A stretch of 63,879 nucleotides of DNA, the filler included, from Collodictyon triciliatum (Eukaryota): the NCBI GenBank assembly GCA_043381765.1. It is 6 parts of 6 records of this genome, joined end to end, with 100 filler letters (N's around TTAATTAATTAA, not from the genome) between each part and the next. Parts side by side here need not be neighbours in the genome. Positions count along the whole stretch, not along the records: positions 1 to 12,062 come from JBHJMP010002244.1; 5 more parts are not named here. One strand, written 5' to 3'. Below the pieces are notes generated by a model. That model was given only the letters and a program-made list of their open reading frames with translations. It did no database searches and was not told the origin of the DNA. Each line of letters starts with the position of its first letter. Within the stretch, counting starts at the first letter, position 1. Shown piece by piece: positions 6,399-60,988 of the stretch. The translations under genes were made by a program, and so were the position numbers.

Positions 6399-7796
6399 TT
6401 AGGGACTTACGGCGGCATAATTCCCAGGAGTGAACGAACTATTTGTGGTCCCCCCGATTTGGTCCCGGAGTTTCGTATATGGGCCCTCCTCGTCATACGA
6501 GCTTCTGAGCCAAAATATGTCCGCTTTTGTATGCACAAACCATGCAGCAATGCCCACAAAGAACCCGCCCCCAACTATATTCCCAAGGGTTGAACCAAGA
6601 ACACTGGTGACTAGAAAATCACCAACAGTAATATCAGCCCCCTCAAGCATGGCCACAGGGATGATAAACATGTTTGCGATGGAATGCTCAAACCCAATTC
6701 CGGAAAATGTGAAAGTTGGAAAGTAGATGGAAAGGACCTTGCCGGCGACATCCAACGATGAAGAGGAAATGTAAGTAGCCAAGCAGACAAGGAAGTTACA
6801 GCCGATACCGCGTAGAAATACCTTTGCGAAGCCCAAGTCTACCTAAGAAACAGGTATTAATATATTTTCAGTATTTGTTAATTTTTAGCGTATATAGTTA
6901 CCAGGATGAATCATGATGAACGTATCATAAGCGACATATCAAAGAAAGGATGGGTATTTTATTTTCAAATTTATGAGGAAAGATAAACCTTATCCTCCAC
7001 ATTATAGATAATCTTATCCGAAAAGGGATACTCTTGTGTCAGGCCGCTTAGGTGGGCGATAAAGTAAGCCATGGTTAGGCTCCCGATAAAGTTACCGATG
7101 TATACAATAACAAGATTTCGAATCATTTCGCTCCATGATATTTGTCCAATTAGATAAGCAGGGGGCAAAATCATGACATTCCCAGTAAAAAGCTCTCCTC
7201 CATAAAGGACGATGAGGATAAGACCCACAGGGAAGACAGCACCATAAAGGAGCTTTTTGAGCCCAGGGTTTTCATCAGCCACCCCAGGAGAGCCATACGA
7301 AACAAGCATGGCAAAGAGTGCACCCATCGAAATAAACATCCCAGCCTGGAAGCTCAGCACAAAAAGCTGGGGGACAGTATAAGAGACCTGTACAATCACC
7401 GCGAATTTTATGCGGCATGAGTTGGCATCATCATATAGTGCAATTTGGCAGACTTATTGTGCATTATGGTACTAAGTCTAAATGAAAGTGCTAGCAAGAG
7501 TTGGGAAATTACAAACCTTCTTCTGCGCGAGATAAGTCAAGTAGTAGAGTGTCTCACGAGGAGAAAAAAACTGAGGAAAGCAAATAGAAATTTTAACTGT
7601 AAAAAAAAAAAGGAAGCAAATACTCCAAAAAAAATAGCTTTCTATTCCACAGTTCTTGTGTATGAGTCACCAATTCTTCAGATATAAAAGAAGCCATGCG
7701 CATTTCGCAAAAACGGGACAATGATATGATTTCCTATGACACTTGAGCACTTACATTCAATTTCTGGTTGAAGTATTCATTGGTCATGGTCTTCAT
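6399..7796 (-). CDS. Formate/nitrite transporter (FNT family), 4 exons
   Basis: Exons MKTMTNEYFNQKLN | FFSPRETLYYLTYLAQKK | VSYTVPQLFVLSFQAGMFISMG...LYGAVFPVGLILIVLYGGELFTGN...VYIGNFIGS | ...RGIGCNFLVCLA...GFEHSIANMF...TLGNIVGG. FNT signatures GxELFTGN and FEHSxANM are present. Introns are GT-AG and in phase. Confidence 0.93.
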
Positions 7797-9015: not shown

Positions 9016-10458
9016 TTATTGGAGGTTGGCAAGGAAGAAAGACACGATGTTGTTCCATCCTTTGTCGTACGCTTCCTGGTTGAAGACATGGCCGAGTTGG
9101 CCGCGCTTTTGCGTGTTGTCTTCGGAGGGGAAGTTGAGGAAGGCGTGGTCGGCGTCTTCGTAGCGGTGGAACTCGTGCTTGACGTTTCCAGACTGTGTTG
9201 GAATCGGTTACAAATCTTGTTTAATGGTGTACGTGTTGTAGGACCAGCGCGCTTATTTGATAGTGGTGGTGTTGAAGGTTTTTTTAGATTTTTTTTTCGT
9301 GCATTTGTGTTTCAATTAAAGTTGGCTTCGCAGCCCGCAGTGTTTTACCTTCAGAAGCTCCTCCAGCTTATCGGCTGTGGCGGGGTCGCTGAATCCTGTG
9401 TGCTTGTCGAGGTTGCCAAAGTTGCATTGGACAGGAACTTTGATCGTAGAAACATCACCCAGACCCGAGTTGTACCCATCTGGAAATGAAGATAAAGTGT
9501 AGGTATATGCATCAGGATGTGGCAATTCAAGCAGACGAAAGCAGAAATAATATTCATATCAGACAACTGTGGGATTTTGTGTTGGTTGGAAGGCGTGGTA
9601 GCATTATTACAGCAGCAGGATGCAGCGTCAACCGAGCCGCCAACAGCAGTTCCAAGAGTCAGTGCTCCACCCATGCAGAAGCTGCGTTCAACATGTATAA
9701 TCGTAAGTCGAATACTAGAATGCAAGGCAAGCATATTATAAAAGCGGATGCCCGTGAAAATGAATCAGTGCTAGAAAAAAATATTCCTTCACTGTGTTAA
9801 GGGATACAGCCACTGATGATATAGTTCTTCGTTATTTTAACAGAAAAATAAAAGGCGAAAATATACATGTTCAAGACATGGGTGATGGCGAGCAAAAGAA
9901 AGCCCGAAACATATCACAATAGAATATAGCTTGCGTCTTTTTTTCGTTCAGGCACATGGAACAAGAAAACTTACCCAACAACACCAACTTTCGCACAACC
10001 GAGGCTTCGAAGGTGGGCTGCAGTAGCGGCAATATCTTGCAGAGCGCCGGCCCAGTCAAGGTGAGACATCAAATGGTGGGCCTAGGACAAGAATGAGGTT
10101 ATATATATACAGACCATGGGCATGTTTTAAGGGGAGAAGGAAAAGTAAATGTAAAAGTAAAAGTAAAAGTAAATGAAACGAAATGAAATGAAATGAAATG
10201 AAATGAAATGAAAAGAAAAGAAAAGCAAGTGGTCGCTGAAACCTCTTCACGGTCGACACCAACTTTGCCGCGGTAGAGGTCGGGAATGAGGCAGTATGCG
10301 CCACCAAGTCTTTCGGACAGGAACGTGGCAATATCTTTGATAGACTGGTTCACTCCCCACCATTCCTGGATCACGATAACGCCAAACTTTTTGTCGCTGC
10401 CGAAAAGTACTCCAGAGACTTCGGTTCCGTCTGGGCGTGCGTAAGTGACAGTGGACAT
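9016..10458 (-). CDS. Dienelactone hydrolase family protein (carboxymethylenebutenolidase-like), 5 exons
   Basis: Reads VIVIQEWWGVNQSIK, LIPDLYRGKV, AHHLMSHLDW, KVGVVG|FCMGGAL (G-x-C-x-G-G nucleophile), YG, VPVQCNFGNLD and HRYEDADHAFLN. The Cys/Asp/His triad is intact. TAA at 9016-9018. Confidence 0.92.
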
Positions 10459-10889
10459 TGCGCGGCTGGGCTTTGTACTGGCTTCTGTTGTTGGGTATGC
10501 GCGAAGCAAATAGACTGTTTAGTGATAGGAAGATTTGTAGATGTTTGATTGTTGGCATGGGCGCCAACAGCTAAGTCTGTCGTGAATAAAAAAAATATAA
10601 AAAAAAAGATTTGTAGATGTTTGTAATTGGCCACGTGATCACAGGCTCCGCTCTGCGAGGTTGTCTCCCTTTCTTTTAGTTTCTTCATTTCGGCCATAAT
10701 GTTTGCTATTAATATGGGATTTTGACGTGTTGACAGGCTGGCTGTCTGTCTGCTGTAAGCGTAATATATACCTTAACGCTCTGCGCGCTCCAGACCGATC
10801 GGCCTCACGCTCTTATAAACCGCAGGTCGAAGGGGACTTCAGTGTCGAATCTACTTGAATGTTCTAGAATGCTCTTTGTAAAAAGGAAT

Positions 10890-11230
10890 TGCCTGGCTTT
10901 CTCCACTTATATGTGGAAATTATCTCTGTGCTCCCATGTAATCACATTAGGTGCTGTGTATGCACAATCCTCGGTATGATTATTATTCTGATGGTAATTA
11001 AATCGATAATTTCACACCAGAGGATTGTGCACAAGCAGCTGGCGGGATTTAACGACGACCCAGATTGGCGGCTTTTTGGCTTCATTTTTACTTGTTTTAT
11101 TCAACTAGAAGGGGTATACCAATGCTTAGATTGGTAAACCTGGTGTGCTAATACCCAAAGTCTCAACACTTTTTCCACAAAGATTGTGTAGTGGTGAAGG
11201 CTGCCAGGAAGGACCCAACAGCCTATTTTT
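10890..11230 (-). ncRNA. Candidate Fanzor omegaRNA / structured element end
   Basis: Lies directly 3' of the Fanzor ORF. Stems are 11113-11140 (TACCAAT/ATTGGTA core), 10959-11033 (12-bp perfect TGCACAATCCTC/GAGGATTGTGCA plus extensions) and ~10900-10920 (TCCAC/GTGGA). Boundaries are approximate. Confidence 0.4.
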
Positions 11231-11879
11231 TTTAGAGATGTGTGTGTGCATTTTTTTAAGGATTAAAAGAAATTTATTGATTATATTTTTAGCGCTGTTA
11301 AAGTCCCTTGTCAAGAATACACTTTGTTTGCTTTCTGAGCGATTGCAATCTTTACATGTGAGACATCTATACAACTTTTTTTTGAATTTCCTTTCAGTTG
11401 CATATATTCCAGTTCTTTTTCGCAGTTGCAACACATCTTGGATGTTCTAAATTCATCTACGCTAACTGTTTCAAAGCGTTTGGATAGTATTTTTCGTAAT
11501 CCTCTTCCGATCATTGCCATAAAATGTTTCATCTGAGATTTTCTGCTTCAGTCTCCATACGCCGGCATAACATCCTTGCCAAATGTCTTTTCGATTCGGT
11601 CCATAGACAATTGTTCACTTCTTTTTGTATTAACATACTATCTCCATGCCAGCTGGACTAAAAAGTCACTTGTTCATAAAATCTGGAAAGTTCTATCTGA
11701 TATCTTGATTTCATAGATACATATTCCCGAAATTTTTCATAATCGACCTTGCATGAATTATGTTTACACAGCTCTGTCTCTAAATCGATTAAAGATGCTC
11801 TTGATGTCTCAAACTGCTGATTCTCTTCAAAAGTCAGGGAACAAAAGAAACAGTTTTTTTTTTCCTTTATTCGATTCAA
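11126..11879 (-). pseudogene. Decayed, 5'-truncated Fanzor (eukaryotic TnpB-like RNA-guided endonuclease), most like Fanzor1
   Basis: Three frames stitch to ...LIDLETELCKHNSCKVDYEKFREYVSMK..FYEQ/LAWR*YVNTKRSE..RIEKTFGKDVMPAYGD*SRKSQMKHF..GRGLRKILSKRFETVSVDEFRTSKMCCNC...LYRCLTCKDC...FLTRDFNSAKNI. This contains the RuvC-II Glu (DEFRTS), a CxxC...CxxC zinc finger and the RuvC-III Asp (RDxNSAxNI). Stops at 11638-40 and 11548-50, frameshifts in homopolymers at ~11660 and ~11380. No introns. Confidence 0.85.
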
Positions 11880-12062
11880 AGTGTAGCGAGGTTATGCCAT
11901 ACAAAGGGGCGGGATGGGAGCGCATGGGAGAGAGCAAACGCGAGTAAGAGAAGACACTACCGTGGAGAGGGTAGCACTGGAAAGAAATCAGTGATAGCGA
12001 GCTGGTCAGGTGGGCGTCCCAACTGGTTGATTGGTTGCGTGGGTAGCAGGGGTTGGATATGC

Positions 12063-12162
12063 NNNNNNNNNNNNNNNNNNNNNNNNNNNNNNNNNNNNNN
12101 NNNNNNTTAATTAATTAANNNNNNNNNNNNNNNNNNNNNNNNNNNNNNNNNNNNNNNNNNNN
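12063..12162. other. Artificial 100-nt scaffold spacer N44-TTAATTAATTAA-N44
   Basis: Identical spacers occur at 24208-24307, 36534-36633, 48709-48808 and 60874-60973. The 12-mer puts stops in all six frames. Confidence 0.97.
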
Positions 12163-48684: not shown

Positions 48685-48808
48685 AAAAAAAAAAAAAAGA
48701 AAAAAAAANNNNNNNNNNNNNNNNNNNNNNNNNNNNNNNNNNNNNNNNNNNNTTAATTAATTAANNNNNNNNNNNNNNNNNNNNNNNNNNNNNNNNNNNN
48801 NNNNNNNN

Positions 48809-49611: not shown

Positions 49612-52600
49612 ATGACCTCACCTCAGAGACGCGGCAGCATCGATAGACCCAGCAGGCTGCGTTCGGTTGGTTGCTGTGTCTTTATGCTATGAATAGAAAT
49701 AAAAGACAAAAAAGTCCTACCTCCGTTAAACTTTGCCTCTTTACGACACAGACATCTATCGGGTCCCTACAAGCTTTCTCTGAGAGCATTTCTGGCCGGG
49801 TAATATTGTGTTCATGTTAGAGCAAAATATTTTTTTCAATCAGCTCCTACTTTTCTTTTTCTTTTTCTTTTTCTTTTTCCATTTCCATTTTCATTTTCAT
49901 TTTCATTTTCATTTTCATTTTCTAATTTCTTCGTTTTGTTTCGTAATTATCTTCACGCAGATCATTTTACAAAAAAAAAAAAATACACCAAGGTTTATAT
50001 TTTTCCATAAGTGATGAATATTTACAAATAAACCCTCCACCTTGCACAGAGCCCAAAGCAGGAATCATTCTCTGAGGTGCTTACCCTTCAGCATATAAAG
50101 AAGCTCATCGGAGTACGTACCTTAATCTACCTTCTTCAATACAAATAAGCAAGCATATGCCTTTCCTTGTATTCAAACATCCAAAGGAGAGCTTAATTTA
50201 CTTGAAAAAACGTTAAGACTTGTATTCCACTGTTTTAATATTTGGTTGAGTATATTCTGTAAATGAGGTTAATCAACTTTATCGTACTGAAAATCATTCA
50301 ACAAAATTAGAAAATGCAATCGAATCTCGGCAAGTCTATGACGGTCATAGAGCGATTTGTGTCAGGAGGAATGACTCCCACACAATTTGTGGAATCGCTC
50401 GAGGACAGAAAACAAAATGCACTCCGGACATTCTTCTCGGAATGGATATATCTATTGGGATTTACCAATGAAGATGAATCGAGGGAGAGGAAACTTCCCA
50501 GTATCAGAGATAAAGGAAATCAAGAGCAAACAAGCCGCTCGCATTCGAGGAGGAGTCCATCTCCTGCTCATTTAAAGGCCCGGCCCACTGAGGAGGACTT
50601 CAATTCATCATCTGATGGTATTTTGAGCGTCTGCAACCACTTTTTTTTTCCCTCTCAGTCAGCTAATATTCCTTTCCTTGTCTTTTTTTCCACTATAGAA
50701 TTTTCTCGCAAAAATTTTCTTTGGCTATTATATTTTGAAAAAAAATGATGCTATACACCAAGAATAGAGTCTATACCATCCATATGTTCTTTTCTCTCTT
50801 TTCTATTTCCTTTCCTTTCCTTTCCTTTCCTTTCCTTTCCTTTCCTTTCCTTTCCTTTCCTTTCCTTTCCTTTCCTTTCCTTTCTCTAAAATCACACTTT
50901 TCCCAGGGGAGAGTTCGCCAACCACCAAACCTAAATACCTGAGGAAATACCGGTACCCGTATTACATTGATGGTAAGCAATCTTCTCCCCGTGTGCGCAG
51001 CAGGTTTGTCAGGGGTGGACAGCCAACTGAGCAATCACGTGCAAAAAAGCCTTCATCAAAATTTGAGCACAGAACAAGGTCATCTCCTGGTCATCCAAAG
51101 CAGACAGGACGGCATCATTTTGGAACAGAGAGACCTGGATTTACTCCGTCCACCAGAGTCCTTCTCACATCATTCAAAACAAACACTTCTGAGGCTGCGG
51201 CTGCACTTGCGCCCTATGTCTCAAATTATATACGTAGAAAGTCACTACCCGCTGATTTATCCTCTATTGACATCTCAGAGCTCACAAACTCTTCTGATAA
51301 GATATTTCGTTCTCCAAACTCTATGTCGTCAAGCAGGCAGCAAGATGGTATACTAAATCAATACGACCTGTTTTTATTTTCATTTTCATGATTACTCACT
51401 TTTGTTTATCTACGACCTATTTTGCCAACCATACTTTCTAACCGAAATATAACAGTTTCAGTGAATGTTTTTCTCATCAAAATGTTTCCTTTTGTCCCTT
51501 CCATTTCTTCTTTGTCAGTAAAATCTCCATGAACCATCCGAGCAAAGATATCAATCATTTTACCTCCGCATACCCTTCTCATCGCATTCACATAAATAGA
51601 TGAGACGCAAAGTCCCCAGAGCTATGTTCTTAGAGCCGTGACATCTCTGGCATTTGCATCCGAAAATCGATTCCAATCTTCTCCCGAAGCTACGCAACGA
51701 CTCCTGGAAACATTAAACTCTGATAAAATATTAGACATAGAGCAAATGATGAGGATATGGGACTCACTACCCGGCCAGCAGCAAAAGCTATGGATTCAAT
51801 TGATTTTTAATCAATTTCGAACAGTTAGTGCAGCTGTAGCACAATTTTCATGGTTTGATGAAGAAACATCTTACACACAATCCCTATCCCGTGTTGTCTC
51901 TTCTTTGAAGCAGATTTCAAAGAGCACCTATGTTACTCTTTACAAAGTGACTGAAAAAGCAGAGAATGTCCACCAGAAACTTTCTGTTATAGCAAGCTCT
52001 CGCGGCTTCGATCCGTCAAACAAAACACCCATAGGAATTGGAATAGCAGGGATATCTGCTGCGGAATCCAAAATCCTTTACGTAGAAAATGTGAGAGAAG
52101 ACTCCCGCTTTGTTACGATTGTCGATGGCGAAGCTCCGAGGGGCTCCTCGATCCTTAGTGTACCCGTTGGATATAATTCCAAACAGAAGTCAGTACACTG
52201 GGTGGTTCAATTCTGCGGTCCTCAGTTCTCACCAGAATCTATTGCATTATTGGAGGCGTTGTCATCTCACACAATAGTACTCCTTTCAAACCACAAATCC
52301 CGTATTCAGGAGGTACATTTGAGAAAGAAGTTTCAAGCCATGATTGAAGTTGCACATGTCCTGTCATCCGAACTTGAATTGGAACCACTCATCAAACTCA
52401 TGAGGCAAACCTCGAAGGAATTATTGGACGCAGACAAATGTACCCTTTTCTTGGTCATTCCAGAGAAGCGTGAGCTATGGACAAGGATCGAAGAAGGACC
52501 CGAAATATCCTTCCCCATGTCTTCGGGAATATCAGGCTATGTGGCTTGTACTGGAGATACGGTCAATATACCTGACGCCTATAAGGTTCATTTTCATCCT

Positions 52601-55600
52601 TACTTTTTCTTTCTTCTAAAACGGGCTGCATTAATGTATAATATACCACCACCAGACAATATATATATCCCTCCCGTGTAACTGTCCCTAATTATTTTTA
52701 TTTGAAAACACCAGGAAATTCTAATCCAAATTGCATAAAAACACACACAGGACCCTCGCTTCTGCCCTGACGTTGATACAGATACAGGATATCGAACTCG
52801 CAGTATTCTCTGCATGCCAGTGAAGGATGGAAAAGGAGAAATAATCGGGGCTATTCAAATGATAAATAAGGTTTTGTTCATCTATGAGTATCTTTATGTC
52901 TTGCAGTCATATTTTTATGAGACAGTTTCCGTTATTCCTTCCCCTGAGAATTCTGTTCATATTATTATTATGCAGGCATCGGGTCATTTTGGAGAGGAAG
53001 ATGAAGAGCTACTACACGCATTCTGTACCCACGCAGCTGTGGCCATTCGCAACTCAAGGATATACAAACAAAAATTAGAAGAAAGGTTCATTATTTATAT
53101 ATATATATCACAAATAACGCATGGGATAGTTCTTCAACAAGGTCATTAATGTAAAAAGGTATATTAATTTATTAATTTTTCGTATTATCCTGACTTGTTC
53201 AGAGAAAAGTTCCAGGCCTTGGCGCAGATAATGGATGTGATTTCATCAGAACTTGAGCTTGACCCGCTTATTCCCATTCTAAGACTAAAATCACGAGAGC
53301 TACTAGTATGATATTTTTTTTACGACAAATTTGTATTTCATTGGAGGAGTTAAACGTTAAGACTATCTTCAAATATCGCGGTATTCACCAAAACAGTAAT
53401 CTGTCTTGATCATTTAGGATGCTGACAAATGCACCTTGTTCATCGTCGATGAAGAAAATAAATCGATGAGAACAAGGTTGGCAGAAGGAATGGATGTATC
53501 ATTTCCAATGACACAAGGAATTGCAGGGTATGTAGCTACAACAGGAGAAACCTTGAATATTCCGGATGCATACGCAGACCCACGGTTCAACAGGGTATAT
53601 TGTGCTATTTTCTTTCTTTATACGGAATGATGCAACCATAAACTCTAAATTCTAAATTATCAATATCTCACTCTTGTCACAATTGAGTATTATATCTATT
53701 TATTCATTTCTTAAATTGTAAATTGTAACGGTAAATAAAATCAAAACAATTAGAAATTCGATATCGAAACGGGGTACTGCACTCGTAATATTCTGTGCAT
53801 GCCAGTCAGGAGCAGTGATGACGGTGCGATTGTGGGGTCGATTCAAATGATCAATAAGAGGAAAGGGTATGTCTTAATCTCACGCGGGTTATATGCCAAC
53901 TGAAAAAAAATACTAAATATATTTATCCCATATTTCATTATTAGGCAATTTGGAAAATCTGATGAGGAGCTACTTAAGGCATTTACGGCACATGCAGCCG
54001 TTGCCATCACAAACTCTCGCCTTTATTCAGAGGTCAGGAACACAAAGCAAACCCTTGAGAGTATTTTGAGTAGCATCAATAGCTACGTCATTACATTCAA
54101 CATGGACGGGATTCTTACGTCTTTCAATCGATCTTTCGGCCATATTTTTGGTGTCCCGGAATCGGAATTTAAGTAATAACGCCATTTATCAGTTTCCTTT
54201 TCTTTTTTATTTTTCAAAAAAAAAAGAAAAAAAAGAAGGGGGATTGGTAGATATCTTTTTCCAAATTATGCTGTTAACAATCTGAACAAACAAGCTCTAT
54301 TATTAATATACTGATAAATACTTTGAGATTGATATCACTATGTGAAATTATTGCAGAGCAAGGCCATTCTGGGCTCTATTCCCTGCTCCTTGCGATAGCA
54401 AGCTCATTGGGGACATGAGGCTTATTTACACTTCATCCAATCCGATTACCAGCACAGCTTTCGTTCTCCAGTCTCTAAATGGCACTACTTACACAGTGAA
54501 TTACACTGTGACACACCTGCTAAGCCATGACGTAAGTCAAAGGATTAAGCAAAATATACCCATTTTACTCGCCTGATATTATATTTTTCATATATATATT
54601 ATCATGTGCTATTAATGAGTTTTTTTTTCAAAAACAATCCTCAGTCAACAGACCAATCGATGTGGGGAAGCCAGAAGCGAACAGGGCTTCTTCTAGTGAT
54701 TGATGATATCAGTGACTTCAACATAATGAAGAAAACAATATCTGATATGGAAACAGAGATGGATAAGTTAAGAACACATGTATCCTCTGCATTCGAAGCG
54801 CCCATACAAGTAGGCAATGATTATCATGTTTAATTATTACGAATGGATGTCTTTCATATAGACCTACATACCATAAGACTCAATAGACACAGTAGCTATT
54901 AGTTCAATAGGCATATTGCTAATCGAGATTTATCATTCAAAATGAAGGGAGTTATAAGAACAATCCAAAAAATAAGCCAAGGAAATCTACCTCTCTCTCA
55001 AACCAGGTACCTATAATTCTTTTTTGAGGGGACTATGTAATCTCCATTTTGAAATTCATTTCTATATTTTTAATGCGGCTGATAATTGAAGTCTAGGAAA
55101 CCTCATCTATCTTGTCTCTTTCTCTATGCAGACAAGAACTTGTTCACTGCCTGACTCTTTTGTCAAAGACCGATCTCTTTCAACCCGACATTGAGAGTAT
55201 GTTGGTTGGTGTTGATGAAACTACTCGCTCGTTCATATTGCAGAGATTCGAACAACCCCTCCATGGAGATAGACAGACTATCCAAACGTATGTATTTAAT
55301 AATATTTTGAGTATAAACCATTTTACAAATGTACGATGTATTTTCCCTTCATTTCGTTAATTTATTAGAGTAGTTCATAACAGTATATATATATGCATTT
55401 TATTCTTATTCACGAGAAACATACTTTGCACCATTGATATTCACTATGTCTCCATCCGAGCTCCACTCATTACCAAATTTGAATGCAGATGGCCTGACCT
55501 GGATACAATAATTGATGGTGTAGACCCTGACTTATTGAATTGGGGCTATGATTGTGCAAACGCGAACGCAGATTCAATCCTTGCCATCATGTTTAACATT

Positions 55601-57036
55601 TTCAAGCATTTCAATCTCATATCATTGTTCCGAATTCCAGAGGAGAAGTTGCGCAATTTTTTGATGGCATGTCGAAACTGCTACCGAATGAATCCCTTCC
55701 ACAATTTCCATCATGCTTTTGCAGTTTTACAGGCTGTATATATCATTCTAGTAAGGACAAAAGTCTCTCAGTATCTCAGCAACATCGACATACTCTCTCT
55801 GGTTGTTGGGGCAATCGCCCACGATTTGGACCACCCAGGGGTGAACAATATGTTTGAGATCAACACGCGGTCGACTTTGGCGATGACGTACAACGACCTT
55901 TCAGTCCAAGAAAATCACCACTCGGCCACCGCGTTCTCACTGATATTTCAACAAGACAACAATATTCTTGAGAATCTTCAACCAGATGAATTTAAGGTTA
56001 GAAAGAGAGAAAAAAAAGTGTGCTGTTGTAGTTATTTAAAGAAATCTACTTTTGCCATGCAAGTGTAATGAATGGCTCTAGCAATTCCAATCAATATAAA
56101 TTATCATAGATCTAACTGAATTTTTACGTTCTCACAGACATATCGCAGTATAACATCATACTATCACTTCGTTTGTAGGAGTTTCGAAAGATTGTTGTTA
56201 CATCCATACTGGCCACTGATATGACCCAGCATTTCGAACTAACTGCTAAGTTCAAGAGTGCGTTTGCCACATCAAGCTTCTCTCGTGAAAGCAAAGAATC
56301 AAGGTAACAAATAGCACGTAATAAAATATCGAATAAAACCCTGTACTCAACTTTTTGATTGCCACCATGTGCCCCAAATGTGGGATGAAAAAAAAAAAGC
56401 GTTCTGTTTTTAACTGATTCATGCAATTTGCTATGATTATCAATCCCTTTAGACAGCTTTTAGTCTCTATTATTCTGCACGCTGCCGACTTGTCTAATCC
56501 TGTAAGACCTTCAGAAATATCATCGGGATGGTCTGAACGACTACGGCAGGAGTTTCTTAGTCAGGTAAGAAAAAGGACACATTAGAATGTAATTATTATA
56601 ACCTACGTAATATCATGACATTTCACCCCAAAGCCAAATTAATTTGCTTTTTGTCGGAAATAACAGACACAAAGGGAGAAAGAATGTGGCGTGCCAGTGA
56701 CCCCCTTCATGCTCATTGAAGAGGACCATGTCTTCGCCAAGAATGAAATGGGGTTCATCGATTTTGTTGTTCGTCCAATGTGGGAGGCTGTTGTGGAGTT
56801 CATTCCAGAGTTATCTGTAAGGAATACATATTATTGATAATCGCCACTAATTTATTTTACTGTATAAAAAAGTATGGGCCAGCTTGATGAAAGCTTCTGT
56901 ACATTTTTGTTTCCTTATGATTCCTATCAAATCACATACCCACACCAAACCTTACATAAAAAATTAGGAGTGTAAAGTTAACATGGATATGAACAAGCGT
57001 TACTGGCAGCACAAGGCTGGAATGCCCTCTTCCTAG
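49612..57036 (+). CDS. Soluble class I phosphodiesterase with three GAF domains and a PAS-like domain
   Basis: Ser-rich N-terminus, then a degenerate GAF (51880-52290) and two canonical GAFs (DADKCTLF..GIxGYVA..VNIPDAYxDPRF..DxxTGYxTRxILCMPV..QMINK..FxxxDE). A PAS-like region follows ([32 protein letters not shown]). Catalytic motifs [42 protein letters not shown] and GFIDFVV. TAG at 57034-36. Confidence 0.93.
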
Positions 57037-60590: not shown

Positions 60591-60988
60591 CACGTTTCTG
60601 TGATGGACTTTGGGGATGGTACCACATCAGATATAGAAAACGAGCACGAAATGCAGAACTTGGAAAGCCAGGATGAAGTAATTTATTATTAGTGTTATTA
60701 GTATTATTATAAGTATTAGTATTAGTATTATTATAAGTATTAGTATTAGTATTATTATAAGTATTAGTATTAGTATTAGTATTAGTATTAGTATTAGTAT
60801 TAGTATTAGTATTAGTATTAGTATTAGTATTAGTATTAGTATTAGTATTAGTATTAGTATTAGTATTAGTATTNNNNNNNNNNNNNNNNNNNNNNNNNNN
60901 NNNNNNNNNNNNNNNNNTTAATTAATTAANNNNNNNNNNNNNNNNNNNNNNNNNNNNNNNNNNNNNNNNNNNNAAAAAGAGATGGGTA

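What the first reader, a model, noticed from the sequence alone, without database searches (positions are those of the whole stretch)
11126..11879. Fanzor (eukaryotic TnpB-like RNA-guided nuclease) relic in a protist genome
Seen: an intron-less minus-strand segment whose three frames join into the C-terminal half of a nuclease, with YGD(W)S..QMKHF, GLRKIL, VDEFRTSKMCCNC, CKDC and RDFNSAKNI. Known: this E / zinc finger / D layout is the RuvC-II, Zn and RuvC-III arrangement of TnpB/Fanzor OMEGA nucleases. The GDWS and DEFRTS wording recalls Fanzor1 proteins of protists and giant viruses (from memory, not a search). Inference: only four lesions are visible (two nonsense changes, two homopolymer frameshifts), so decay is recent. 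Intact, possibly active copies of an undescribed Fanzor family may exist elsewhere in this genome or in its viruses. RuvC-I and the N-terminus are absent here.
Basis: partly seen in the sequence, partly recalled or inferred. Interest (0 to 1): 0.8.

Follow-up and report, generated by a model that had tools for sequence, protein, structure and literature searches.

The report
Dead Fanzor1 nuclease gene fragment
This stretch is the broken back third of a Fanzor1 gene, a eukaryotic RNA-guided DNA cutter carried by jumping genes, left as a fossil between ordinary genes of a freshwater-type protist, so it is a real but ordinary relic.

Summary
The motifs are real. Minus strand 11853-11129 holds the C-terminal ~35% of a Fanzor1 nuclease, read across frame changes. 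The 100-aa middle piece hits 876 proteins (best E 2.8e-29) and solved Fanzor1 structures. A 648-aa intact metagenomic relative, P0176, is 64-68% identical. A profile of the family hits only PpFz1, SpuFz1 and GtFz1 strongly (E 1e-69 to 1e-51).

All Fanzor1 signature residues downstream of RuvC-I survive: the G, the alternative E, TSK, C4 and RD..N.

- four stop codons;
- three frame breaks, one of them an 11-to-13-nt replacement rather than a homopolymer slip;
- a 5' cut at 11853/11854, where a separate high-copy poly(A)-ended repeat begins.

The ORF probably ended at 11163.

It belongs to a multi-copy family. That family is sister to giant-virus Fanzor1 genes that sit beside IS630/Tc1-mariner transposases inside 32-33-bp inverted repeats.

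This scan has already reported several Fanzor1-mariner relics on giant-virus DNA. This is a protist-genome counterpart: a new member of a known kind, of low interest.

The parts
11129..11853 (-). Whole Fanzor1 relic. It corresponds to about residues 423-648 of the 648-aa relative P0176.
   Evidence: tblastn HSPs. The family depth profile and the boundaries at about 11129 and 11853/4 come.
11661..11852 (-). Piece 1, first frame: the helical region between RuvC-I and RuvC-II (...SLIDLETELCKHNSCKVDYEKF...SRFYEQVTF).
   Evidence: P0176 residues 429-486 align to 11834-11661 at 59% identity. P0003 aligns from 11834.
11648..11660 (-). Lesion: 13 unrelated bases stand where other copies have 11 bases encoding R-K-M-R. 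The net +2 causes a frame break.
   Evidence: Loose-end consensus of contigs from X1 and X14 at 11647 and 11661, compared.
11377..11655 (-). Piece 2, second frame: RuvC-II region and first half of the TNB zinc finger (WR*YVNTKRSEQ...AYGD*S...VDEFRTSKMCCNC...KGNSKK).
   Evidence: 68% identity to P0176 residues 488-580. P0001 searches.
11638..11640 (-). Lesion: TAG stop where other copies read CAG (Gln).
   Evidence: In one search table 3, place 11640 A>G on the + strand carries 31.6 of 31.6 depth in X1 and 116.8 of 121.1 in X14.
11548..11550 (-). Lesion: TGA stop where other copies read TGG (the Trp of the GDW motif).
   Evidence: In one search table 3, place 11548 T>C on the + strand carries 11.6 of 11.6 depth in X1 and 192.9 of 260.3 in X14.
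11554..11556 (-). Gly codon at the position of the canonical RuvC-II glutamate. It is the Fanzor1-specific G, invariant G521 of alignment A1.
   Evidence: PMC10530073 passages and PMC3627910 passages.
11452..11454 (-). Glu codon of VDEF: the relocated catalytic glutamate just before the zinc finger (invariant E555 of A1).
   Evidence: PMC11423790 passage placing the E on the loop between the fifth beta strand and TNB. PMC10530073.
11422..11433 (-). First CxxC of the TNB zinc finger (C-C-N-C), preceded by T-S-K.
   Evidence: Invariant C562 and C565 in A1. Alignment.
11376..11383 (-). Lesion: an A8 run two bases longer than the in-frame state, which breaks the frame.
   Evidence: Some other copies lack 2 bases here (table 4, places 11376 and 11382). 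Relatives read G-N-S/T-K-K-V/L.
11258..11374 (-). Piece 3, third frame: second CxxC (codons at 11354-56 and 11345-47) and RuvC-III (R-D-F-N, Asp codon 11303-11305, ...NI).
   Evidence: 67% identity to P0176 residues 579-629. Invariant C587, C590, R603, D604, N606 and N610.
11241..11257 (-). Lesion: a further frame change somewhere in an A7 run followed by (CA)5.
   Evidence: The tail matches P0176 residues 620-642 only in another frame (weak, E 0.11). Copies vary in indels here (table 4).
11163..11252 (-). Probable true C-terminal tail (..HTHL*KK*AVG...), with TAA at 11234-11232, TAG at 11225-11223 and the likely original stop TGA at 11165-11163.
   Evidence: At 11225 other copies read CAG: 6.87 of 6.87 depth in X1 and 122.1 of 171.5 in X14.
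11129..11162 (-). About 34 nt of non-coding 3' end of the element. Similarity to other copies stops near 11129, followed by TA.
   Evidence: depth bins, and X2 record 19 covering 11129-11208 with an unlike loose end before 11129. The boundary rests on few, low-depth contigs.
11854..12062 (-). Separate high-copy repeat that ends in AATAAA (11871-11866), GG and A10 (11863-11854). It is probably the 3' end of a poly(A) retroposon that cuts or interrupts the Fanzor gene. The contig ends at 12062.
   Evidence: X14 depth rises from about 400 to about 4300 at this point. X2 record 23 and X16 record 18 match 11854/5-12062 with 1-2 differences and then diverge into unlike flanks. Sequence, linker.

Best explanation
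Minus strand 11853-11129 is a dead, 5'-truncated copy of a Fanzor1 gene. It is one decayed member of a multi-copy family in a protist genome, lying in the intergenic space upstream of a dienelactone-hydrolase-like gene.

In its intact form the family is a ~650-aa protein. By homology to SpuFz1, PpFz1 and GtFz1, such a protein binds a guide RNA (omegaRNA) transcribed from the 3' end of its own element. It then cuts double-stranded DNA beside a short motif, using a single RuvC site built from three residues: Asp (RuvC-I), a relocated Glu just before the zinc finger, and Asp (RuvC-III). This mechanism is inferred from homology.

In the nearest giant-virus relatives the gene rides with an IS630/Tc1-mariner DDE transposase inside 32-33-bp inverted repeats. 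This architecture is shown here.

The window's copy cannot work. It lacks the N-terminal two thirds including the RuvC-I Asp. It carries four stop codons and three frame breaks. Its 5' side abuts a different, poly(A)-ended high-copy repeat.
For: Homology:
- P0001 against 1.84 billion representatives gives 876 hits at E<=1e-3, best 2.8e-29.
- PDB phmmer with P0001 finds only PpFz1 (4.5e-6) and SpuFz1 (0.0021) among 2 hits at E<=10.
- P0176 hits GtFz1, PpFz1 and SpuFz1 at 2e-28 to 4e-23, the only 3 hits at E<=0.01.
- The A1 profile gives 2.9e-69, 4.3e-68 and 2.3e-51. The other 4 hits are at E 0.24-0.68.

Residues: the relic keeps all invariant columns of A1 that lie in its range except one, Y520, which is Trp (QLAWR) in the relic. 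Kept are G521, E555, T558-S559-K560, C562, C565, C587, C590, R603, D604, N606 and N610.

Lesions. Other copies carry sense codons at three of the four stops and an in-frame sequence at 11648-11660.

Multi-copy family:
- 332 contigs of run X14 were laid on the whole 11100-12062 stretch, the high-copy repeat included. The listed pieces on the relic differ from it by about 10-15%; the near-identical ones listed lie on the neighbouring repeat.
- Four NCBI-sourced fragments are 70-82% identical. Two of them carry the same out-of-frame words as this copy.

Tree: the relic groups with P0172 and P0173 (100/96), then with P0175, P0176 and P0171 (92/83). This clade is sister (98/90) to the clade that holds the giant-virus loci L002-L006.

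Architecture of relatives:
- A DDE_3 + HTH transposase sits beside Fanzor1 in L002 and L005.
- 30 of 80 viral loci have such a transposase in their flanks; 25 are upstream and divergent.
- TIRs of 32-33 bp, 97-100% complementary, bound the element in L002, L004 and L005.

Cellular context: a formate/nitrite transporter split into two exons, DLH, and GAF plus PDEase.
Against: - Pfam's own model (PF07282, TNB domain) stays below its cut-off, both for the pieces (E 0.005, 17.4 bits against 26.3; 1 of 5 pieces) and for intact relatives. Family assignment therefore rests on PDB and library homology, not on a curated Pfam hit.
- The two A-run frame breaks could be sequencing errors. No reads of the source assembly were available.
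- No run held this locus itself; the best share of words was 0.18. The comparison copies may therefore come from related strains or species.
- The 3' boundary (~11129), the tail frame and the retroposon reading each rest on few contigs or on a weak HSP (E 0.11).
- No transposase, TIR or omegaRNA could be shown for this copy.
Confidence: 0.93

Rival explanations
1. The relic is a leftover of an integrated giant-virus segment (an endogenous viral element), not a copy of a transposon family resident in the protist.
For: The sister clade is made of giant-virus contigs. 516 of 586 pattern stretches in IMG/VR encode relatives (tree). Bao and Jurka note virus-derived Fanzor elements inside cellular contigs, namely HMa-1 and ESvi (PMC3627910 passages).
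Against: No viral gene lies on the ~12-kb contig. Its genes are cellular and have introns. The relic's own clade contains no IMG/VR locus. Many diverged copies exist (NCBI fragments), which points to amplification inside a cellular genome.
Confidence: 0.08
2. The gene is intact in the organism, and the lesions are assembly or sequencing errors.
For: Two frame breaks sit in A-runs (A8 at 11383-11376, A7 at 11257-11251). The assembly is fragmented and stitched with linkers.
Against: Four stops arise by base substitution. An 11-to-13-nt replacement and a junction with a different repeat are not homopolymer errors. There is no similarity to the N-terminal 420 residues anywhere in the window.
Confidence: 0.03
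3. The protein part is dead, but the 3' end survives as a standalone guide-RNA ('ghost') locus that intact family members use in trans.
For: Standalone ghost loci are mentioned for S. punctatus Fanzor (PMC10432273, legend of Extended Data Fig. 3). The last ~100 nt can form three hairpins.
Against: The folding energy is not unusual: z = -1.40, and 14 of 200 shuffles fold as well. The same region shows stops, indels and substitutions like the rest. It shows no similarity to the conserved 3' ends of the viral relatives. Rfam finds nothing relevant.
Confidence: 0.04
4. The gene is read through recoding, that is, stop codons read as sense or programmed frameshifts.
For: TGA stands exactly where relatives have Trp.
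Against: All three stop types occur (TAG, TGA, TAA). Other copies have ordinary TGG and CAG at these sites. Long host ORFs, up to 961 codons, are open under the standard code. RuvC-I is missing in any case.
Confidence: 0.01

Closest known systems
Fanzor1 carried by Tc1/mariner (IS630-like) elements of giant viruses and protists (PGv-1, PUl-1; Bao and Jurka 2013, PMC3627910, passages read)
   Same: The same protein family and motif constellation: [TS][TS]-x-x-C4-x(12)-RD plus the Fanzor1-specific G and E. The sister clade of the relic's family is made of giant-virus loci with a DDE_3/HTH transposase and 32-33-bp TIRs around transposase plus Fanzor1.
   Different: The relic's own clade (P0176, P0175, P0171 and the NCBI fragments) sits on a long separate branch, about 45% identical to the viral clade. 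For it no transposase, TIR or TSD has been seen. I could not fetch PGv-1 itself, so the link to the named elements is by architecture, not by direct alignment.
Solved Fanzor1 nucleases SpuFz1 (8GKH), PpFz1 (9CF0) and GtFz1 (9CER)
   Same: There is full-length profile homology, E 4e-68, 3e-69 and 2e-51. The relic's VDEFRTS-C..C aligns with PpFz1's and SpuFz1's D-E-F/Y-[RK]-T-S-..C..C. The catalytic layout D / E-before-TNB / D is as described in PMC11423790.
   Different: Sequence identity is low. The intact family is ~650 aa with no long insertions, such as PpFz1's FRI domain (a comparison not tested structurally). The window's copy is a pseudogene that lacks WED, REC and RuvC-I.
Bacterial TnpB of IS200/IS605 and IS607, and Fanzor2
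   Same: The same RuvC plus zinc-finger (TNB) core and the same presumed guide-RNA logic. A sub-threshold PF07282 signal is present.
   Different: No TnpB or Fanzor2 chain reached E<=1 with the family profile. Gly replaces the canonical RuvC-II Glu, with the relocated Glu instead, as reported for Fanzors (PMC10530073).

Membership tests
Fanzor1 | Significant sequence homology to experimentally characterised Fanzor1 proteins | tested here: met
   (relic piece: PpFz1 4.5e-6, SpuFz1 0.0021). (P0176). (family profile, 1e-69 to 1e-51).
Fanzor1 | RuvC-I aspartate (the D of D-X(125,275)-[TS][TS], Bao and Jurka 2013) | tested here: not met
   It is absent from the window. Homology starts at P0176 residue ~423-429. 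The intact relative P0176 has it (GVDPGK, D364, 193 residues before T558).
Fanzor1 | [TS][TS]-x-x-C4 zinc finger (TNB domain) | tested here: met
   T-S-K-M-C-C-N-C ... C-K-D-C. All four Cys fall on the invariant columns C562, C565, C587 and C590.
Fanzor1 | RD (RuvC-III Asp) 5-50 residues after the zinc finger | tested here: met
   R-D-F-N lies 12 residues after the last Cys. The Asp codon is 11303-11305.
Fanzor1 | Fanzor-type rearranged RuvC-II: Gly/Pro at the canonical Glu position and a conserved Glu before the zinc finger (G500/E536 of SPu-1-1p) | tested here: met
   The G of Y-G-D-W and the E of V-D-E-F lie 34 residues apart and are invariant in A1. Papers.
Fanzor1 | Intact open reading frame of ~600-700 aa | tested here: not met
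   Four stops, three frame breaks and a 5' truncation.
Fanzor1 | omegaRNA encoded at the 3' end of the element | tested here: inconclusive
   The fold is not distinctive, z = -1.40. There is no match to viral 3' ends and no Rfam family. The family's own copies could not be fetched for covariation.
Tc1/mariner-Fanzor1 element | DDE transposase, TIRs and a TA target duplication | tested here: inconclusive
   Relatives: met. This copy: no transposase trace in the window. Only the 3' end is present, and TA follows the apparent end at 11129, which is weak evidence.
Fanzor2 / TnpB | Closer homology to IS607-type TnpB/Fanzor2 than to Fanzor1 | tested here: not met
   No Fanzor2 or TnpB chain among the 7 PDB hits at E<=1.
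Poly(A) retroposon (for 11854-12062) | 3' end with a poly(A) tail, high copy number and different flanks at each copy | tested here: met
   AATAAA-GG-A10 ends at 11854. There is a ~10-fold depth step, and contigs diverge at 11852-11854 into unlike sequences.
Poly(A) retroposon (for 11854-12062) | Reverse transcriptase or a SINE head, and a target-site duplication | not testable with these tools
   Only 209 bp lie before the contig end at 12062. Rfam finds nothing there.

The most novel reading that the evidence does not exclude
The relic marks a protist-resident, amplified Fanzor1 lineage: the clade of P0176, P0175, P0171, two NCBI fragments (P0172, P0173) and this copy. In this reading the lineage branched from giant-virus mariner-Fanzor1 elements and still has intact, active members, such as the 648-aa P0176, in freshwater protists. 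That would be a case of virus-to-host (or host-to-virus) transfer followed by a burst in a cellular genome, and a source of a compact natural Fanzor1.
Probability: 0.3. Interest if true: 0.4.

Novelty: new member of a known kind. Interest (0 to 1): 0.2.

Why it matters
It matters little on its own. Fanzor1 genes and their decayed copies are known to be widespread in protists, fungi, animals and giant viruses.

Modest value remains:
- It documents a multi-copy Fanzor1 family in a freshwater-type protist whose nearest outgroup is a giant-virus transposon clade. That fits the idea that viruses ferry these elements.
- It points to an intact 648-aa relative (P0176) that could be tested as a nuclease.
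- It shows that reading by eye undercounted the lesions and misread the tail.

Tried and rejected
- Whole-genome search: no genome is held for this window, so copy number and intact copies in the source genome could not be examined.
- Pfam on the pieces gave only a sub-threshold PF07282 hit. PF26935.1, listed as precomputed for all relatives, was not returned by any Pfam scan here, so I cannot name it.
- I first thought 'PRYTLNRIKEKK' (11891-11854) continued the homology, as L-R-Y-T...N-H-K-I-F-L-K-E-K-K-K. I rejected this. Contigs show a repeat boundary exactly at 11853/4, and no HSP covers that stretch.
- By eye, the relic's last ~60 nt seemed to resemble the conserved 3' end of viral loci L002-L006. 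An nhmmer profile of those ends did not find the relic at E<=100, and the MAFFT alignment was unconvincing. Rejected.
- There is no second copy and no transposase remnant in the 64-kb window.
- A JGI metagenome scan with P0176 gave one distant locus at 21% identity. An IMG/VR scan with P0176 alone gave none. Only the alignment query worked.
- No sequencing run held the locus. The best share of words was 0.18, which came from the neighbouring repeat. The lesions could therefore not be checked against source reads. Habitat labels of those runs are not used as evidence.
- PMC10711439 had no passage for my terms.
- Earlier notes of this scan near this place: none.
Full report
**What is there**

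On the minus strand between 11853 and about 11129 three reading frames carry collinear pieces of one protein.
- Frame 1, 11852-11661: ...SLIDLETELCKHNSCKVDYEKF...SRFYEQVTF.
- Frame 2, 11655-11377: WR[TAG]YVNTKRSEQ...AYGD[TGA]SRKSQMKHF...GLRKIL...VDEFRTSKMCCNC...KGNSKK.
- Frame 3, 11374-11258: LYRCLTCKDC...LTRDFNSAKNI.

**Is it more than chance?**

Yes.
- I read the middle piece with X at its two stops (P0001, 100 aa) and searched 1.84 billion cluster representatives. It gave 876 hits at E<=1e-3 and 125 at E<=1e-10, the best at 2.8e-29 and 58% identity.
- tblastn of 11 relatives back onto the window gives collinear HSPs in these three frames for nine of them. For example, residues 412-588 of the 634-aa P0007 map to 11810-11282. 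The two short fragments P0003 and P0005 cover only two of the three pieces.
- There is no second copy in the window.

**Which family**

Sequence comparison points to Fanzor1.
- A phmmer search of P0001 against all PDB chains returned only two sequences at E<=10, both Fanzor1: Parasitella parasitica Fanzor1 (4.5e-6) and Spizellomyces punctatus Fanzor1 (0.0021).
- The closest intact relative is P0176, 648 aa, from a metagenome. It is 68% identical to P0001 and 63.6% identical over 217 aligned columns of the whole read-through.
- P0176 hits GtFz1, PpFz1 and SpuFz1 at 2e-28 to 4e-23. These are the only three hits at E<=0.01.
- A profile of 12 family members (A1) hits the same three at 2.9e-69, 4.3e-68 and 2.3e-51. 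The remaining four hits at E<=1 are noise-level, 0.24-0.68. No TnpB or Fanzor2 chain appears.
- Pfam's TNB model PF07282 stays below its threshold for the pieces (1 of 5 pieces, E 0.005) and for intact relatives. The assignment therefore rests on homology to solved Fanzor1 proteins, not on Pfam.

**Signature residues**

Bao and Jurka (PMC3627910; passages read) define Fanzor/TnpB by D-X(125,275)-[TS][TS]-X-X-C4-X(5,50)-RD. They add two Fanzor1-specific residues, G500 and E536.

Jiang et al. (PMC10530073; passages) show that Fanzors replace the canonical RuvC-II Glu by Gly or Pro and use a relocated Glu. The Cell 2024 structure paper (PMC11423790; passages) places that Glu on the loop between the fifth beta strand and the TNB domain.

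The invariant columns of A1 are G521, E555, T558, S559, K560, C562, C565, C587, C590, R603, D604, N606 and N610. The relic has the family residue at each of these:
- G of YGDW, codon 11556-11554;
- E of VDEF, codon 11454-11452;
- TSK;
- C..C at 11433-11422;
- C..C at 11356-11345;
- R-D-F-N, with the Asp codon at 11305-11303.

Of the other invariant columns in its range only Y520 is changed (Trp, QLAWR). One nuance: the GDW motif marks the vacated canonical Glu site, and the catalytic Glu is the one in VDEF. The RuvC-I Asp (D364 of P0176, in GVDPGK) and everything N-terminal are absent from the window.

**How broken it is**

I find more.
1. TAG at 11640-11638. Other copies read CAG there.
2. 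TGA at 11550-11548. Other copies read TGG, the Trp of GDW.
3. At 11660-11648, 13 unrelated bases replace the 11 bases that in other copies encode R-K-M-R. The net +2 is a replacement, not a T-run slip.
4. An A8 run at 11383-11376, two bases longer than the in-frame state. Some copies lack two bases here, and relatives read ..KK[VL]..
5. A further frame change within 11257-11241 (an A7 run plus (CA)5).
6. TAA at 11234-11232.
7. TAG at 11225-11223. Other copies read CAG.
8. The 5' cut at 11853/11854.

Items 1-4 and 7 rest (contigs of four public runs laid on the stretch), together.

Items 5-7 depend on the tail being read in the frame that matches P0176 residues 620-642 (..HTKLFKKQAVG.. against ..HTHL*KK*AVG..). 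That HSP is weak alone (E 0.11), but the CAG variant at 11225 supports it. On this reading the original stop was TGA at 11165-11163.

The listed contig pieces of other copies differ from this one by about 5-15% (table 8). 'Recent decay' is therefore not supported.

Caveat: no run held this locus itself (best share of words 0.18). The two A-run lesions could be sequencing errors, and the other copies may belong to related strains.

**The 5' boundary**

At 11854 the depth of matching contigs jumps about tenfold. In run X14 it goes from about 400 to about 4300.

Contigs from a wastewater run (X2 record 23) and from a lake metatranscriptome run (X16 record 18) match 11854/5-12062 with 1-2 differences. 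They then continue into sequences unlike the window and unlike each other (tables 2, 7, 8).

On the minus strand this block ends in AATAAA-GG-A10 (11871-11854). I read it as the 3' end of a separate, high-copy poly(A) retroposon that truncates or interrupts the Fanzor gene (about 0.75 confidence).

The contig ends at 12062, so which of the two applies cannot be told. The window is a chain of ~12.1-kb contigs joined by N44-TTAATTAATTAA-N44 linkers.

**The family and its relatives**

- Four NCBI-sourced fragments of 59-136 aa are 70-82% identical. P0020 and P0174 even carry the same out-of-frame words as this copy, so they are further decayed copies in the same or a close genome.
- 332 contigs of one small run were laid on the 11100-12062 stretch as a whole, the neighbouring high-copy repeat included.
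- A search with P0176 for proteins of 356-1134 aa found 242 at E<=1e-20, but none above 46% identity. None of the NCBI-sourced ones exceeded 42% among the 120 listed. No intact close copy from a sequenced genome was seen. This is weak evidence, because the index is word-based.
- In IMG/VR, 516 of 586 pattern stretches encode full-length relatives. The best 80 were kept, many of them on giant-virus MAG contigs.
- In L002 and L005 the Fanzor1 gene lies next to a divergent DDE_3 + HTH (IS630/Tc1-mariner type) transposase, between core virus genes such as ribonucleotide reductase, capping enzyme and helicase.
- 30 of the 80 loci have such a transposase in the fetched flanks. 25 are upstream and divergent, 2 upstream on the same strand, and 3 downstream.
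- L002, L004 and L005 have 32-33-bp TIRs, 97-100% complementary, bounding a ~3.3-kb unit.
- This is the architecture Bao and Jurka described for PGv-1 and PUl-1.

I built a maximum-likelihood tree of the C-terminal region with 39 rows; L010 was dropped for having fewer than 60 residues.
- The relic groups with P0172 and P0173 (100/96).
- That group joins P0175, P0176 and P0171 (92/83).
- With P0003 and P0005 (100/99) it forms a long branch sister (98/90) to the clade holding L002-L006.
- The root is by midpoint only.

**Context**

The contig carries cellular, intron-split genes. A formate/nitrite transporter lies in two exons at 6399-7453. A dienelactone-hydrolase-like exon lies at 10099-10518, about 600 bp downstream of the relic on the same strand. 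There are no viral genes. The other contigs of the window encode GAF plus PDEase, Sel1/pentapeptide and PUA-domain proteins, all open under the standard code. An endogenous-virus origin or a recoding explanation is therefore unlikely.

**How it works**

By homology (inferred, not shown here), the intact family protein binds an omegaRNA made from the 3' end of its element. It cuts DNA next to a TAM with one RuvC site.

For bacterial TnpB this serves transposon maintenance, by cutting vacated sites so that the element is copied back. I saw this only in the abstract of PMC10690162 in the listing. For Fanzor this biological role is still an inference.

The window's copy cannot do any of this. I found no evidence that its 3' end is a conserved RNA: the fold has z = -1.40, there is no match to viral 3' ends, and Rfam finds nothing.

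**Verdict**

It belongs to a known kind.

This scan has already reported several Fanzor1-mariner relics on giant-virus DNA. This one is their counterpart in a protist genome.

Noticed in passing
window 12063-12162, 24208-24307, 36534-36633, 48709-48808, 60874-60973: N44-TTAATTAATTAA-N44 linkers recur every ~12.2 kb. The window is a chain of similar-sized contigs, so genes on either side of a linker are not real neighbours.
   Followed up: partly
window 11854-12062 (minus): A high-copy repeat ends in AATAAA-GG-A10. Contigs from freshwater, wastewater and lake-RNA runs match it with 1-2 differences over 209 bp and carry different flanks. It is probably a poly(A) retroposon of the host.
   Followed up: partly
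window 12540-12640 and 35174-36577: Long microsatellites: (AAAAC)n-like just upstream of the linker, and a ~1.2-kb imperfect trinucleotide-type repeat that stays open in several frames (His/Asn-rich, Ser/Gln-rich). It lies next to a PUA-domain exon.
   Followed up: no
window 24256-27141 (+): A 961-codon open frame encodes pentapeptide repeats followed by many Sel1 repeats.
   Followed up: no
window 51596-52681 and 55361-56068 (+): A GAF-domain exon and a class I cyclic-nucleotide phosphodiesterase exon lie on one strand. They are probably one intron-split GAF-PDE gene.
   Followed up: no
L002 1637-4952; L005 1627-4949; L004 1638-4919: Intact ~3.3-kb giant-virus elements have 32-33-bp TIRs (97-100% complementary) enclosing a divergent IS630/Tc1-mariner-type transposase and a 605-634-aa Fanzor1. 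TA adjoins both ends in L002. The last ~70 nt of the ORF are strikingly conserved in DNA across L002, L004, L005 and L006, which makes them a candidate omegaRNA part.
   Followed up: partly
proteins P0176, P0007 and 118 others: All listed relatives carry a precomputed Pfam accession PF26935.1 that was not returned by any Pfam scan here. Its name could not be seen.
   Followed up: no
window 11648-11660 (minus): The 13-nt filler that replaces 11 nt of coding sequence contains the palindrome CCAGCTGG. It is possibly a repair scar. It has not been explained.
   Followed up: no
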